From Fimbriosthenelais zetlandica (lineage: Eukaryota): a stretch of DNA of 64,000 nt. Position numbers: made by a program. This document shows, one piece after another, positions 54,001 through 60,000 of the stretch. The DNA lies in NCBI GenBank assembly GCA_977030845.1, contig OZ365116.1, positions 16,678,001 to 16,742,000 of the forward strand, in the 5' to 3' direction. Within the stretch, counting starts at the first letter, position 1; every line of letters starts with the position of its first letter.

Positions 54001-57000
54001 ATCTATCAAATTTCCCACTCCAGCCTGATACCTATTCTCCTCAGAGACGGGGGTTCCACAGTCACCCCAGATCAATGTTTGTATCGGAATCAGTGGGGGA
54101 TCAGGAGCCCTGGCCATCTGGTGGCCACATTGCCATTGATTGTTAGTTATTTATCTGAAGGAGCTGTCCCTCTCCACCCCATTTCTACCCCTCCACCCCA
54201 TCCCAACCCACACATCCCCTATTCGTTATGCAGGGCGCAGTTTTCTGGCCCGTCCCTGACTTTGAATCTGTCTCAAGGGCAGTCTGACCTCTACAATGGC
54301 TTCACACCTATATCCAGCCACATCGGAGAGGGAATCAGTAGAACACCAGCCTCCTAACTAAGGGCTGCAGGATAATTTCTGTTATTCCCGTTTGACCTTG
54401 GGATGTCATTGCGATATCACGATCGTATCATGTGATTTGTCGGTGTCATGGCTGACCACTTTGTCACTTGACACCATATCGTTTTGCTGTTCCCCTCGCG
54501 CCCAAATCGATTCTAGCGTTTTGATGAACATGCAATAACATGCTCAAAATATTCCCTTTGGTGCATGTCCGCTCATAGACATGTATAGCCTAGATCTTCT
54601 CCCATGATCGTTCCTGCTGTTTTCAATTACCATTGACAATTACCTGCAAAGTACTGGGTTCAAACCCACAACCTTTGAGTCGCAATCATGTGTTTTCACC
54701 CACTGAGCAGAGTCACCCTCCCTGAGGGATTATAAAGGGTTTATCTTTGGCGGGACTGCATTATTTGATGTGGATTGGATCTGCTGGTATGGATCAGAGG
54801 TTAGGAGTTTGCCGGGCACAGATCTGGGTTATCAAAGCCCTGATATGAGCATTGAAGGGTAATAACTAGGCCGCGCTGAGCTGAGGACGGCCATCATGGC
54901 TCCTCATGACTATTTTAATCTGTGATTGGACTCCTGTTTATAGCAACCAAGTCCTTGTGTGGATTTTAAATGAGGACAAAATACCTTCTGTCTTGAAAAG
55001 CTTATCCCACATGTGCATGGTTACCCTTATATCGCTTATTTTCAATCAGATTTCCATTAGATAGATCCGTTGAATCGCCTAAATCTTGGTTTGAATTTAT
55101 AAAAACGCCCTGGACCAAACAAAGGAACTGCCTTTTAGCAGTGTCCAAGTCTGACTTCACTAAATTATCTTTGGTGGGAACTGTTGAAGTCAGAGTATAA
55201 CCCATCAGATCCGAAAAGATTAACAAACTATAATCTACTAGCGGGTAGTTAGGGTGCATCTGGTGCTAGTAGGACTTCACAGCACTTGTAACTGTAGCAC
55301 AAGGTCCTATTAGACATGAGGGCATAGTACAAACATCTGCCATGAGATGGAGGTAGTGTGCTTGCTGGGGTATGCCCCATTCATGGGAAAGAGGAAAAGA
55401 GAAGTGAAGCCTCATCTGTTTTCTCTACATTGGCTGGAGACAGAGAGACAGGAAGGGCTGAAACCAGTCTGTACCGGTTCTATAACGCACCCAGGAATCA
55501 TAATAGTGTCTAGTGAGAAGGCTAGAGTAGGTCCTGGGTCTGGGAGAACAGCCCGCGGCAATATACACCCGGCGAGTGGATTGCCAATCTGTCGTAGATG
55601 AGGAAAAGCTGGGTCTCCATGCACATTTGTCGTCAAGAGAAGCTCATGCCGGCAGAGAGAGGCGCTCGGAGAATGAGGACTGAATGGTAGGGACATCTCC
55701 AGGACAGCAGAGGCTCTGTCACCAACAGCACTATTTCCCCTTATACTTCACTGAAAGGTCCTTGACAAGCCGGAGCAGCCTTCCCCCATCCACTCACTCT
55801 AATCCATCTAGCTTTATATTTGAACTGCTCTCATATCATGGTTGTGATTGAAGTATAATAAGGCTGTTTGTAGCGATGACCGGCCCCTGATTGTATTGTG
55901 GGGGTACACAGGGACATTAAACATACCAAACCATTGCTGCTCTGTCTCTCTCTCCCACACACACATTGCCTGTATGCATAAGATTAGGCGTCTGGCTGAT
56001 GCCCTGTGCAGCAGACAGGGCCATCTCGGGGCCCGCCTCTCATGTGCCGCCGTTATGGACTTGTACCATAATGTGTGTATGTTGAGGGTGTGTGTGAGGG
56101 AGCATACATGTGTCAACTAATTTGTGAGTAGGATATAAAGGGGTCCCTCTCCCACGCTGTGACAAGCCCATTTTGAAACAGTCAAATGGGCAGGGTGCAA
56201 CTCTAAGACTGGAGAAGCAGCTCTCTTTTCAGTTTGCCTGGCTGAACCAGCTGCTGCATTGGCAGGCAAGAAGAGGGAATAGTATATAGACTCGGGGCTC
56301 TGTCACGGGCTCCCTCCTCCTCCTCCTGCCCCTCCTCCTCCTCCTCCTGCTCTTGTTCCTGCTCCTGCTCCTCCTCCTCCAGCAGGCCTCCAGCGAGCCA
56401 TCACAGCCATCACTAGGAGCTGGGCAGCAGTCCCACACACCACGTCTCGTCGTTGTCCTCCTCTGCCTCCCGTTGTACTTCTTCACACATAGCAAAGCAC
56501 ATCACCCTCTACTGCTGCACCACCTCACCACCATCAGCGTTTTGTGAACCTTTCTGTGTCCCTTCATTTTTGTGATATATTTATTAGTGTAACCAGCTTC
56601 TTCTTCCTCCTCTGAGCCTGCCTGGAGAGTCTCCTGTCTGCCTTACAACAAATTTCCCTCCATTTGATTGTCAAAGATCTCCACCTTCTGTTCTCCCACC
56701 TCCAGGACTTACATCCTCATCGTTATCTTCCAAAATCCTCATATCTTTCCATATCTTGCCAAACGGGACAAAGTTTACGGAGAGATTACATCAGATGCTT
56801 TGCTATCACGACTATTCCTGTATAGAAGCCTGGTGTATAAGAAGCTGTGAGGATTGGTGGGTAAGTTAGGAAGTGGGTGGACTTGTCTAATCTAGCTGGA
56901 CTATATCTGCAGTCATTATCTCGACTCTGGACAGTCTAGGAGCAGCCAGGCTTGCAGTCATATCACTAGGGAATTATTTCTCTCTACCTAGCTGTACAGA

Positions 57001-60000
57001 CCACTTTTCTCCCCTCTCTCTCCCATACCATTCATCTCCAAGTCTTCCATCAGGGCATTAACCTGCTCCTCCTGCTTCTCCGGCATCTCTTCTTCCTCAT
57101 CCGCAGGAAGGCTGTTTTATATGAGGGAGCGTCGCATACTCTTGCCATCGTTATTGGTGCAGCTCGGTCCCGGACCTTCCTTCATCACTACACAGGAGTA
57201 CAAGCAGTGTGTCCATCCCTCCTACACTCACTTCACTCCCCATACATAGCCATACATCCACCCTGAGCTCTCACAAACACCAGCGAGCTGGAGAAGGCAC
57301 TTCATACCATACCAGACACAAAGCAACACTTGTGGATTCTTGCACATAAAGTACAAGAAGATTAAGAGAGACCTATATGGTACATATATATACCATGCTG
57401 TGAGCTCCATCTATCCTGAACAATTCAACGAACATTATGAGTGTATGATAAGATCGCTGGTTGAATACTCTGTTAACAGACCGTCCATTTTAACTGTGGT
57501 GACTGATGAATGAATATCGCCTTGGAACATTTAACTCAGAAGTCATCCTGTCTTGCTGATTTTCTGGTCATCTTCTCCATGTATCTGCTGTAAAGCTGAG
57601 ATTGTACCGTATTCTGGGAAGACGAGGATACTTACGCAAAACCAGATCTGCTTGAAGTTCCTACTAGAACTCCTCTACAACATCTACTACTGCAACTTCC
57701 CCTAATACAACTACTGCTGAAGATCTCCCCGAGTCGCCTTCTACTGTTTAAACTAACTTCTGCTGGATCCGTCTTTTTGTAAATGATACAAAAAAAATAC
57801 ATTTTACCATCATCGCAAACACCCGCACAACAATTATATAAGATTGGTCCACTCTACTTTACAAAACCAGGATCCCACACATATTTATAATTCTCCACAT
57901 CTAGCATCCAGTTAAATTTACCCCACAACGACTTTTAAGCTTTTTATCTTTCTATCTAAAGAAAACAAAATACTCAAGACAAAATGGCTTGTCTATACAT
58001 CCTTCCACTGCTTACATACTTGGTCTATTTGGCCACCACAACCACATTCGCCCAATTCGCCGAGGTGGAATCATCAGGTAAGTGAAGCCATGCATGACCC
58101 GAACACACTCGACATACCAACTTTATTCTCCCCACCCTCCTGCTTACATCTAAACTTATAACTTGATCTTTTTTCCTCTGAAATTGTCCTCTGTTTGAGA
58201 ATTATTTCTGCAGGTCGCTGGAGGATAAATGGTAAAACCCTGATATCCCAAGGATGGGAAGGGGAAGGGGAAACGTGACTTCCGTAGTCGGTGGGAGTAA
58301 CAAGTATGGCCTATTGGTCTGGAGGACCCCGCCTCCACTAAACAGATTGTCCATCAGATGCCAAACATATTTTCCCTTCCAATAAGACCTAATCATATAA
58401 ATTTTGCCCGCGGGGGCCTTCAGTTCGGTGTGACCCGCGGATAAAATGACGTACAGACTAGGTGCATATGGGAGAAATCTGCGGGACATCTGATGGAAAT
58501 CCACTTAGTGGGTTTGTGCCCAATGGAGGTCAAAGAGGCATATAGATAATTCGAGGGGATATTAGTGCAAATTGTAGTGGGTGTGCTACAATAGGCAGGC
58601 TGGGAATAGACCAGCATGTGTCTATGTGCCAGTAATGAGTGGTTAGGATGGGACGATTATAACTTTGCCCCAATCTAGGTCTGGCTCTGTTGCCGGAAGG
58701 AAGCCAGGGGCACTGGGAAATGAGCGATATCAACATAACTGTGTTATGAATCTATTCACGTGGCAATTGTTGAAGGAACTGTCCGTATATGCATCAATTC
58801 AACTGGCCACGTTTTGAAATTCCATGTGATGTTGACCGTTTATATTGTAACCGGCTTCTTACTGCTTTTGCTCCAGTTTTGAATTTCAGTGAATTCAGCA
58901 TAATTGTGCGGAATATCGTGAATCCAAAATCCATTCTGCACATTATCCGGCTTGGCCTATCTATTATTCGTGCTAATCGCAATATTTCAATTTTTGTCTC
59001 TTAGCTGGCATGTGGAATAACTAATTTTCATATTCTTTCTGCATTCTTTTACATTAATGTTCTTATGACTTGGTTCCAGGCGTTTTGTCATGGCAGCAAT
59101 ATTTGAATGGATTTTTTAAAAATATATCTATATCCTTTACTTTCTATAATTACAACTTCATTGCGATGTGTGTACAAAACTTGAAACCTCATTTAGGACA
59201 TTGACATATTTTTCACAAAGGAGTTGCTGTATCTCAGCGATTTCCATGACCTGCGATCATTGCTCCTGACCCTCACATACCATTAACTCTCAATGGTTTA
59301 AGCCTGAAAACAACATCAATTTTTAAAGGATAAAATACATTGAAGTGTAGGTTTTTGAGTGAAACGGTTCTCTGTTCGGATGTCTTTGAGCGATTTGTAT
59401 GGGGCCGGCTTATCCTGGGATAAAGTGCTGTCTGGGCCTGGTAACTTGGGGGATTAGGCTACAGAGCTGATCATTCCATCCATTATTGTTTTGGAGGAGA
59501 CTGGTAATATAAGGTCCAGATCCACTGATATAGTTTCCAAATAGCGACCAGATGTTTCTCTCATAGTAAAACCAAGATTGACATTTTCCCCATGAGTGCC
59601 TTAACGAGAGAGTAGTCCATGTTAAGATGTAAACCATGACATAAAGAGAAGGCAAGTATCTGATTGTCATCTGATGGAAATCTGCTTAGTTGAGGCGAGC
59701 CCCTAAAAAAAGCCAGCAATCATTGTCCCAGCTCTATCTGATAGCTCAATACTTCATCCCTTAGACTTGCCTTATCTTAATCCTGAGCAGCTCTCAGCTA
59801 TAAAGCCATGAGCTGCTCCTCTGCGGCCAGAACTGTTCATCTGATAGACAGAGGCTTCTCAGAAGTCCTGCTTGCTTGTTGGCAATGCTGCTGGCGTCTG
59901 ATAACATATCACTTAAAAACGGCCCGTTTTCACGGATGGCTGATATGTTAGTGCTTGTGTGTCTGACCTGAATATGAAGCCAATATCTGGCCTAACTGAC

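What the first reader, a model, noticed from the sequence alone, without database searches (positions are those of the whole stretch)
56134..58083. Second 5' end with its own signal peptide: possible internal promoter producing a C-terminal half-protein of the CUB gene
Seen in sequence: promoter-like motifs, a clean non-coding intron, and a 31-codon signal-peptide segment ending in a phase-1 GTAAGT donor. The last CUB exon (29418) also ends in phase 1, and no further CUB exon was found in the 28 kb between them. Inference: both donors could use the same downstream acceptor beyond the window, giving a full-length multi-CUB protein and an N-terminally truncated isoform with its own route into the secretory pathway. 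Established knowledge: C. elegans SOL-1 is a four-CUB auxiliary subunit of AMPA-type glutamate receptors; orthology to it is not proven here. The simpler alternative is the start of an unrelated secreted or membrane-protein gene.
Basis: partly seen in the sequence, partly recalled or inferred. Interest (0 to 1): 0.68.

Follow-up and report, generated by a model that had tools for sequence, protein, structure and literature searches.

The report
Candidate signal-peptide exon inside SOL-1-like intron
A short start-of-gene-like segment encoding a secretion signal sits inside a very long intron of a gene resembling the glutamate-receptor helper SOL-1; sequence statistics suggest it may be a real gene start, but what it is spliced to lies outside the window.

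Summary
The described letters are there: ATG 57984 (caaaATGg), 31 codons plus 1 nt, a hydrophobic signal-like peptide, and a CAG|GTAAGT donor at 58078 in phase 1.

On loose criteria the pattern is not above chance: 3 loci seen, 1.3 expected. With a consensus donor and Kozak context, only 1 of 300 null windows shows it. These criteria were chosen after seeing the candidate.

The + strand from 56189 to 57376 is the strongest ATG desert in the window, with 2-3 ATG against about 13 expected. No window-wide null reached so low a count (0 of 200), and ATG is the most depleted of 64 trinucleotides.

The CUB gene is SOL-1-like. Three exons align colinearly at 47-50% identity with a RefSeq 'suppressor of lurcher protein 1-like' protein, whose CUB3, CUB4 and TM parts have no match in the window. 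The candidate therefore lies in the CUB2→CUB3 intron (at least 34.6 kb), on the same strand and in the same phase.

No homologue of the peptide was found, and no transcript data or sequence beyond 64000 was available.

My odds: real 5' exon about 0.55, split roughly evenly between host-joined and independent gene; chance about 0.4.

The parts
56134..56141 (+). Distal TATA-like motif (TATAAAGG) with an Inr-like CAGTC about 36 nt downstream
   Evidence: Read. TATAAA occurs 48 times on + and 44 on - in the window, so the motif alone means little. It gains weight because ATG density drops sharply just after it: 9 ATG in 55838-56108, then 56186, then none until 56795.
56189..57376 (+). ATG-poor stretch on the + strand, a candidate 5' leader
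   Evidence: 2 ATG against 13.0 expected; ATG is the most depleted of 64 trinucleotides, z -3.8 to -3.9. Counting 56186-57377, 3 ATG against 13.6±2.8, reached by 0 of 2000 blockwise dinucleotide shuffles. It has the lowest obs/exp of 1244 windows on both strands. Window-wide null: a run of 609 nt or more in 2 of 200, and a count of 3 or fewer in any 1192 nt in 0 of 200. 15 other pyrimidine-rich windows give 171 observed against 164 expected. CAT, which is ATG on the other strand, is not depleted.
56313..56380 (.). (CCT)n microsatellite inside the leader
   Evidence: TRF: period 3, 22.7 copies; the repeat finder family D1.
56861..57106 (+). Candidate 246-nt intron in the leader (tgg|GTAAGT ... 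ccgcag|G)
   Evidence: Rough donor score 4.7 and acceptor score 6.7, against 8.3 and 3.9 for the two real CUB-exon donors and 7.3 and 2.7 for the real acceptors (matrix values recalled). No transcript evidence.
57835..57842 (+). Proximal TATA-like motif TATATAAG, 149 nt upstream of the ATG
   Evidence: TATAWAAR occurs 11 times on + and 14 on - in the window, about 0.2 per kb per strand. The nearest upstream ATG (57783) lies before it, so a leader starting about 30 nt after it would be free of ATG.
57984..58077 (+). Candidate first coding segment: 31 codons plus 1 nt, encoding a hydrophobic signal-like peptide (P0001)
   Evidence: Translation. In-frame TAA at 57957. Kozak-type caaaATGg. Best 12-residue Kyte-Doolittle mean 2.11. 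T and A at -3/-1 of a possible cleavage after residue 23 (my reading). No positive charge in the N-terminal region. No Pfam match and no homologue.
58078..58083 (+). Donor GTAAGT in phase 1; with the exon end it reads CAG|GTAAGT
   Evidence: The only CAGGTAAGT on either strand of the window. One of 4 MAGGTRAGT sites, all on the + strand, another being the real CUB2a donor at 28080. Rough score 8.6.
1294..1502 (+). Host gene exon: second half of CUB1 (phase 2 in, phase 1 out)
   Evidence: tblastn: Tubulanus protein aa 18-90, 47% identity; Plakobranchus protein aa 12-87, 47%. Splice sites read. Pfam CUB did not reach E 0.01 for this ORF.
27866..28082 (+). Host gene exon: first half of CUB2 (phase 1 in, phase 2 out)
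   Evidence: Pfam CUB E 2.8e-08. tblastn aa 104-163, 50% identity. Splice sites read.
29168..29418 (+). Host gene exon: second half of CUB2 plus a Pro/Ser-rich linker (phase 2 in, phase 1 out)
   Evidence: Pfam CUB E 1.4e-07. tblastn aa 164-243, 50% identity. Single-exon relatives at 58-85% identity. Splice sites read.
29419..64000 (+). Host intron between CUB2 and CUB3, at least 34.6 kb and running off the window; it contains the finding
   Evidence: No match to aa 244-581 (CUB3, CUB4, TM) of the Tubulanus protein anywhere in the window at E up to 20, apart from cross-hits to the CUB2 exons. No Pfam domain in any ORF there.

Best explanation
The segment 57984-58077 is most likely a genuine first coding exon on the + strand. 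It encodes a cleavable signal peptide and is served by a promoter of its own. That promoter is either the proximal TATATAAG at 57835, giving an ATG-free leader of about 115 nt, or the distal TATAAAGG at 56134, giving a long ATG-poor leader with one small intron, or both.

The exon sits inside the CUB2→CUB3 intron (at least 34.6 kb) of a SOL-1-like gene. SOL-1 proteins have four CUB domains and a TM segment and act as auxiliary subunits of AMPA-type glutamate receptors.

Its perfect phase-1 donor must pair with an acceptor beyond 64000. Two partners are about equally likely:
(a) the host's own CUB3 exon, giving a short signal-CUB3-CUB4-TM isoform in the manner of beta-neurexin;
(b) exons of an independent gene for a secreted or membrane protein, nested in or following the host.

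Shown: the sequence features, their rarity under nulls, the ATG desert, the identity of the host gene, and the absence of CUB3/CUB4/TM exons from the window.

Inferred: transcription, signal-peptide function, splicing, and the partner.
For: 1. Composite signal. An ATG with R-3/G+4, an open hydrophobic ORF of at least 18 codons and a MAG|GTRAGT donor occur together in 1 of 300 null windows; without the Kozak condition, in 14 of 300. CAGGTAAGT occurs only here in 128 kb.
2. ATG desert directly upstream on the same strand.
   - Lowest obs/exp (0.43) of 1244 windows.
   - 0 of 2000 local shuffles reach the count.
   - Window-wide nulls: 2 of 200 for the longest run, 0 of 200 for the lowest count.
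   - Not a by-product of pyrimidine richness: 15 control windows give 171 against 164 expected.
   - ATG is the most depleted of all 64 trinucleotides.
   - The desert begins within 20 nt of the site expected from TATAAAGG at 56134.
3. The 201 nt before the start codon hold no ATG, and a TATATAAG lies 149 nt upstream.
4. Host context. Three colinear exons match a RefSeq 'suppressor of lurcher protein 1-like' protein at 47-50% identity, and its CUB3-CUB4-TM half is missing from the window.
5. All module boundaries of the host are in phase 1, as is the candidate donor.
6. [quoted passage not shown]
Against: - No homologue of the peptide's 41-aa ORF was found, among proteins of 73-2000 aa or of 22-72 aa. 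This is weak evidence, because such short ORFs are rarely predicted in the source data.
- On loose criteria the pattern is at chance level: 3 loci observed against 1.3 expected.
- The strict criteria were picked after seeing the candidate.
- The peptide has no positive charge before its hydrophobic core.
- The long-leader model keeps 11 upstream ATGs, 7 of them clustered in 57377-57579.
- There is no CpG-rich island: o/e is 0.26-0.42 at 56.0-57.4 kb.
- No recognisable downstream exon in 58078-64000.
- The three Tubulanus isoforms seen share one N-terminus; no short isoform is among them.
- No trained signal-peptide predictor, transcript data or related eukaryotic genome was available.
Confidence: 0.55

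Rival explanations
1. Chance. The ATG, the hydrophobic run and the GTAAGT are a coincidence in intronic DNA of the SOL-1-like gene. The ATG desert has another cause, such as decayed pyrimidine-rich simple sequence. Nothing is transcribed from here other than host pre-mRNA.
For: - Loose pattern: 3 loci in the window against 1.3 in nulls, and 147 of 200 nulls have at least one.
- The single motifs are abundant.
- No homologue and no Pfam match.
- No downstream exon visible.
- The region contains (CCT)n and other low-complexity sequence.
- The strict criteria are post hoc.
Against: - With a consensus donor and Kozak context, 1 of 300 nulls.
- The ATG desert is window-wide significant and ATG-specific. 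It is absent from 15 other pyrimidine-rich windows and lies directly upstream on the same strand.
Confidence: 0.4
2. Sub-reading of the best explanation, and the reader's own. The exon is an alternative first exon of the SOL-1-like gene driven by an internal promoter. Donor 58078 and donor 29419 use the same phase-1 acceptor of the CUB3 exon beyond the window, giving a full-length four-CUB protein and a short signal-CUB3-CUB4-TM isoform.
For: - Same strand, inside the CUB2→CUB3 intron, upstream of the missing CUB3/CUB4/TM exons.
- Phase 1 matches all host module boundaries.
- A same-strand donor with no exon or AATAAA for 2.7 kb after it (first at 60831) would naturally meet host acceptors (inference).
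- CUB3 is reported as the critical domain of SOL-1 (review passages).
Against: - The partner was not observed.
- Phase 1 is common for signal-peptide exons in general (recalled), so the phase match discriminates weakly.
- The Tubulanus isoforms X1-X3 all start alike.
- The two paper searches listed no short SOL-1 isoform (listings only, plus passages of one review).
Confidence: 0.27
3. Sub-reading of the best explanation. The exon starts an independent gene for a secreted or membrane protein, either nested in the host intron on the same strand or lying after an unseen end of the host. Its other exons are beyond 64000.
For: - Own TATA-like motifs, an ATG-poor leader and a Kozak start.
- The peptide resembles nothing in the SOL-1-like relatives.
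- The host's closest mollusc model (Plakobranchus, 277 aa) ends soon after CUB2. That could reflect a truncated model or a split gene.
Against: - A multi-exon gene nested on the same strand would expose its acceptors to the host donor at 29419 (inference).
- No exon or domain is seen in the 5.9 kb left in the window.
Confidence: 0.28
4. Compact two-exon gene for a small secreted peptide. In this reading, intron 58078-58213 is removed and a phase-1 exon from 58214 adds 21 codons before a TGA.
For: A pyrimidine-rich ...tctgcag|G acceptor at 58212-58213, with a rough score of 3.5, within the range of the real acceptors. The frame stays open for 21 codons (read).
Against: - No AATAAA or ATTAAA until 60831.
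- The tail has no cysteines, dibasic sites or other peptide-hormone marks (my reading).
- No homologue.
- An acceptor-like motif within 140 nt is easily chance.
Confidence: 0.03
5. Internal cassette exon of the host gene between CUB2 and CUB3, rather than a first exon.
For: The Tubulanus isoforms differ by a 28-aa cassette in exactly this linker. One reading (AG 57977, exon 57979-58077, 99 nt) enters and leaves in phase 1 with an open frame.
Against: - That acceptor has a purine-rich tract (pyrimidine fraction 0.25).
- The other two open readings leave in phase 2 or 0 and would break CUB3 (3 open readings in all).
- A hydrophobic 15-residue core inside an extracellular linker is unlikely.
Confidence: 0.02

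Closest known systems
SOL-1 / dSol-1 family (suppressor of lurcher; CUB-domain auxiliary subunits of AMPA-type and kainate-type glutamate receptors)
   Same: The host gene's three visible exons (second half of CUB1, both halves of CUB2) align colinearly at 47-50% identity with a RefSeq protein named 'suppressor of lurcher protein 1-like'. That protein has four CUB regions and a C-terminal hydrophobic segment. Its C-terminal half is nearest by language-model features to arthropod 'suppressor of lurcher protein 1' clusters, score 0.96. According to a review, SOL-1 has four extracellular CUB domains plus a TM segment.
   Different: Only 1.5 CUB domains are in the window. CUB3, CUB4 and TM are inferred to lie beyond it. 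No direct comparison with C. elegans SOL-1 was possible because its sequence was not on hand. No function was tested. The reading I saw describes no internal-promoter isoform.
Alpha/beta-neurexin gene organisation (an internal promoter whose first exon supplies its own signal peptide and then joins the shared 3' exons). Recalled knowledge; no call.
   Different: For neurexins the transcripts and proteins are established. Here neither the promoter, the splice nor the product has been observed, and the families are unrelated.
Neto1/Neto2/SOL-2 (two CUB domains + LDLa + TM; auxiliary subunits of kainate/AMPA receptors)
   Same: CUB-domain type I membrane proteins that modulate ionotropic glutamate receptors. 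NETO2 chains are among the solved structures matched by the Tubulanus relative, E 3.4e-13.
   Different: No LDLa motif anywhere in the window in six frames (pattern recalled) and no LDLa Pfam match. The closest full-length relative has four CUBs and no LDLa.

Membership tests
SOL-1 family (host gene) | Sequence similarity, colinear over several exons, to proteins annotated as SOL-1-like | tested here: met
   tblastn of XP_074658183.1 (P0047): aa 18-90, 104-163 and 164-243 match 1286-1501, 27910-28083 and 29169-29420 at 47%, 50% and 50% identity, in order and on one strand. Name taken. The name comes from an automatic pipeline; no function was tested.
SOL-1 family (host gene) | Four extracellular CUB domains | not testable with these tools
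   Only the second half of CUB1 and the whole of CUB2 are in the window. CUB3/CUB4 of the relative have no match in 29419-64000. Sequence beyond 64000 and before 1 is not available.
SOL-1 family (host gene) | Single C-terminal transmembrane segment (type I topology) | not testable with these tools
   Present in the Tubulanus relative (C-terminal hydrophobic run). The corresponding exon is not in the window.
SOL-1 family (host gene) | Modulates gating of AMPA-type receptors (GLR-1) | not testable with these tools
   Functional property, known from C. elegans and Drosophila according to the review read.
Internal-promoter short isoform (beta-neurexin type) | Promoter located in an intron of the long form, on the same strand | tested here: inconclusive
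   The location in the CUB2→CUB3 intron on the + strand is shown. Promoter activity is only suggested by TATA-like motifs and the ATG desert. No CAGE or RNA data.
Internal-promoter short isoform (beta-neurexin type) | Private first exon encoding its own signal peptide | tested here: inconclusive
   Hydrophobic core with KD mean 2.11 over 12 residues. Small residues at -3/-1 of a possible cleavage site, and no N-terminal positive charge (my reading). No trained predictor was available.
Internal-promoter short isoform (beta-neurexin type) | In-frame splice into exons shared with the long form | not testable with these tools
   Both donors are in phase 1, so the frame would fit. The acceptor lies outside the window and there are no junction reads.
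Recursive splice site (ratchet point) of a long intron | Pyrimidine tract and AG directly abutting GTAAGT | tested here: not met
   The 20 nt before 58078 are only 8 of 20 pyrimidines (read), so this is not a juxtaposed acceptor-donor.

The most novel reading that the evidence does not exclude
A lophotrochozoan SOL-1-like gene makes two products from one locus. One is the full four-CUB auxiliary subunit. The other is a short isoform of signal peptide, CUB3, CUB4 and TM, made from an intronic promoter in the manner of beta-neurexin. The short form would keep the CUB domain reported as critical for SOL-1 function and drop CUB1-2, so it could act as a distinct or competing modulator of glutamate receptors.
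Probability: 0.27. Interest if true: 0.6.

Novelty: new member of a known kind. Interest (0 to 1): 0.4.

Why it matters
SOL-1 proteins set the desensitisation kinetics of invertebrate AMPA-type and kainate-type receptors. According to the review read, CUB3 is the critical domain and a secreted ectodomain can partly rescue sol-1 mutants.

A natural short isoform holding only CUB3-CUB4-TM would be a ready-made dissection of the protein, and possibly a regulatory device. It could be tested with ordinary RNA data.

If the exon instead starts an unrelated gene, or is chance, the finding is routine annotation. The reusable part is the ATG-desert test, which flags candidate 5' leaders from raw sequence.

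Tried and rejected
I used stop-free ORFs instead.
- **Pfam coverage.** Scanned: all ORFs of at least 55 aa on both strands; all 232 + strand ORFs of 30-54 aa downstream of 29419; 67 of the 198 upstream ones. The other 131 (1-19.4 kb) were not scanned. 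Only the two CUB2 half-exons matched. The remaining matches were all below their cut-offs (DCA16, Cep192_D1, E7, zf-C2H2, Herpes_UL46, Nrap, RHH_7) and I take them for noise.
- **LDLa-type cysteine patterns** in six frames: none.
- **Peptide homologues.** The 31-aa query was too short. The 41-aa stop-to-stop ORF found nothing among longer proteins or proteins of similar length.
- **Relatives of the CUB exon** in the first search were unnamed single-exon ORFs without context.
- **One of my local queries** (first half of CUB2) was cut out of frame by mistake and gave no hits. The exon was covered properly.
- **Repeats.** Self-BLAST and repeat finders show no transposon boundaries or other copies of 56-58 kb. 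There is only a 40-nt interspersed repeat at 58332-58376.
- **Rfam:** no family in the window.
- **Recursive splice site:** rejected because the tract is purine-rich.
- **Cassette-exon reading:** rejected.
- **Two other perfect donors** (47589, 63145) have no convincing exon upstream.
- **Coding reading of 56.2-57.1 kb:** only low-complexity frames.
- **One script gave no answer**. A lighter version ran.
- **Zheng et al. 2006** is not held.
- **Spliced models.** Exons were searched one by one and the joined step was left out.
- **Collections.** The closed metagenome and viral contig collections, and genome contigs (bacteria and archaea only), were not used, so cross-species DNA conservation stayed unchecked.
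- **Human origin.** I do not take the window for human: no Alu-type motif, and the nearest named relatives are a nemertean and a gastropod protein.

Full report
**What is in the sequence.** The window is 64 kb of animal-type DNA without N. Its CpG o/e is 0.44. It has no Alu-type motif, and I do not take it for human.
- TATAAA at 56134;
- GTAAGT at 56861;
- a pyrimidine-rich CAG|G acceptor ending at 57106;
- an ATG at 57984 in caaaATGg context, 24 nt after an in-frame TAA;
- 31 codons plus one base;
- CAG|GTAAGT with the GT at 58078, which is phase 1.

The peptide (P0001) has a 15-residue hydrophobic core. Its best 12-residue Kyte-Doolittle mean is 2.11. Small residues sit at -3 and -1 of a possible cleavage after residue 23, and no basic residue precedes the core. 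That reading is mine; no trained predictor was available.

**Is it more than chance?** The single motifs are not. TATAAA occurs 92 times and GTAAGT 27 times on the two strands. A loose composite (ATG, open frame of at least 18 codons, hydrophobic start, GTRAGT donor) occurs at 3 loci in the window. First-order Markov nulls gave a mean of 1.3, and 147 of 200 had at least one.

The candidate does, however, carry the full consensus. CAGGTAAGT is unique in 128 kb. With MAG|GTRAGT the composite appears in 14 of 300 nulls, and with R-3/G+4 as well in 1 of 300. These are textbook criteria, but I applied them after seeing the candidate, so I treat the figures as suggestive.

**The ATG desert.**
- On the + strand, 56186-56795 is the longest ATG-free run of the window at 609 nt. 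The adjoining 326-nt run is second longest, and the longest elsewhere is 300 nt.
- Of 1244 windows of 1800 nt on both strands, the one starting at 56201 has the lowest observed/expected ATG ratio, 0.43. The mean is 1.01 with sd 0.16.
- In 56186-57377 there are 3 ATG against 13.6±2.8 in dinucleotide shuffles made within 150-nt blocks. None of 2000 shuffles went as low.
- A window-wide null that keeps local composition reaches a 609-nt run in 2 of 200 cases, and never reaches so low a count in any 1192 nt (0 of 200).
- Fifteen other pyrimidine-rich 600-nt windows show no depletion, 171 observed against 164 expected. The five at this locus show 17 against 40.5.
- ATG is the most depleted of all 64 trinucleotides there (2 against 13.0, z about -3.9), while its complement CAT is enriched.
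- Upstream of the TATAAA motif ATGs are dense: 9 in 55838-56108.

Strand-specific avoidance of ATG is what selection against upstream start codons produces in 5' leaders. That link is established knowledge; applying it here is inference.

A second motif, TATATAAG at 57835, would give an ATG-free leader of about 115 nt. I cannot choose between a distal start, a proximal start, or both.

**What the CUB gene is.** Pfam finds CUB only in ORFs 27793-28083 and 29151-29420. The splice sites define three exons:

| Exon | Phase in | Phase out |
|---|---|---|
| 1294-1502 | 2 | 1 |
| 27866-28082 | 1 | 2 |
| 29168-29418 | 2 | 1 |

I searched the exons one by one and left out the joined model.
- The last exon first found five unnamed single-exon ORFs at 58-85% identity.
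- A full HMMER pass over 1.84 billion representatives, followed by a local BLAST, picked out two named proteins that also match a third exon at 1294-1502.
- These are XP_074658183.1, 'suppressor of lurcher protein 1-like isoform X2' of Tubulanus polymorphus (581 aa), and GFO28268.1 of Plakobranchus ocellatus (277 aa).
- The Tubulanus protein aligns in order. Residues 18-90 match 1286-1501, 104-163 match 27910-28083, and 164-243 match 29169-29420, at 47-50% identity.
- Its remaining 338 residues hold two more CUB regions and a C-terminal hydrophobic segment.
- By language-model features that half is closest to arthropod 'suppressor of lurcher protein 1' clusters, score 0.96.
- No SOL-1 structure is in the PDB copy. 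The best matches are cubilin, neuropilins and NETO2.

**Where the finding sits.** Residues 244-581 of the relative have no counterpart anywhere in the window. No ORF of 30 aa or more on the + strand between 29419 and 64000 matches any Pfam family above noise. The minus strand is equally empty.

The host gene already has a 26.4-kb intron between 1502 and 27866. The simplest reading is that 29419-64000 is part of a CUB2→CUB3 intron of at least 34.6 kb. The candidate exon lies 28.6 kb into it, on the same strand. All three module boundaries seen in the host are phase 1, as is donor 58078. It does not show that the model is true.

**Other readings tested.**
- A cassette exon of the host is unlikely. 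Of three acceptor choices that keep the frame open, only one preserves phase 1, and its tract is purine-rich.
- A recursive splice site is excluded, because there is no pyrimidine tract before the GTAAGT.
- A compact two-exon peptide gene (intron 58078-58213, then 21 more codons) is possible on paper. The acceptor's rough score is 3.5. No polyA signal follows until 60831.
- The region is not a repeat or a recognisable mobile element, and it holds no Rfam family.
- The 41-aa ORF around the peptide has no homologue in either length class. This is weak negative evidence, because such short ORFs are seldom predicted.

**Mechanism and odds.** I put about 0.55 on a real first coding exon with its own promoter and about 0.4 on coincidence.

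If the exon is real, its strong donor must find an acceptor beyond the window. One candidate is the host's CUB3 exon. That would give a short signal-CUB3-CUB4-TM isoform beside the full-length protein, the arrangement known from alpha- and beta-neurexins (recalled). I put this at about 0.27.

The other candidate is a set of exons of an independent secreted or membrane protein, at about 0.28. The phase match favours the first only mildly, since signal-peptide exons are often phase 1 anyway (recalled).

A review states that SOL-1 has four CUB domains and a TM segment. It also says that CUB3 is critical and that a soluble ectodomain partly rescues mutants (passages read). A CUB3-containing short form would therefore be biologically meaningful.

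Two paper searches (listings only) and that review showed no report of such an isoform. The primary paper, Zheng et al. 2006, is not held. The three Tubulanus isoforms share one N-terminus. They differ in a 28-aa cassette in the CUB2-CUB3 linker and in a stalk segment.

**Verdict.** The decisive data are the sequence beyond 64000, junction reads, mapped 5' ends and alignments with related genomes, none of which was within reach here. Interest is moderate.

Noticed in passing
window 56189-57376, + strand: The strongest ATG desert of the window: 2 ATG against 13 expected, with ATG the most depleted of 64 trinucleotides. It starts about 50 nt after a TATAAAGG motif, while ATGs are dense just upstream. 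As a general device it could flag 5' leaders in raw sequence.
   Followed up: yes
window 1294-1502, + strand: An exon for the second half of a first CUB domain that Pfam missed at E 0.01. It was found through the Tubulanus and Plakobranchus relatives (47% identity). It is followed by a 26.4-kb intron, and the window therefore starts inside the gene.
   Followed up: yes
window 30486-30746: A stretch of about 260 nt that matches its own reverse complement at 73%, in the manner of a palindrome or foldback element. On the minus strand it also carries a hydrophobic ATG ORF ending at a GTRAGT (30512 to 30417). This is one of the chance-level look-alikes of the finding.
   Followed up: partly
window 11849-11891, 58332-58376 (inverted), 59658-59695: Three copies of an interspersed repeat of about 40 nt (87-95% identity), two of them within 1.6 kb downstream of the candidate exon. 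There is also a local inverted pair at 58350-58372 / 58475-58497.
   Followed up: no
window 28080, 47589, 58075, 63145 (+ strand): All four perfect MAG|GTRAGT donor matches lie on the + strand and none on the minus strand. One is the real CUB2a donor. The sites at 47589 and 63145 have no convincing exon upstream.
   Followed up: partly
P0047 / P0160 / P0161 (Tubulanus polymorphus RefSeq isoforms): The three isoforms share an N-terminus that lacks a signal peptide and the first half of CUB1, so the 5' end of the gene model is probably incomplete. They differ by a 28-aa cassette in the CUB2-CUB3 linker and by a segment of the stalk before the TM. Small alternative exons therefore do occur in the intron that corresponds to the one holding the finding.
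   Followed up: partly
window 37565-38218, + strand: The longest open frame of the window (218 aa). It has no Pfam match and a low-complexity, non-protein-like translation, so it is probably not coding.
   Followed up: partly
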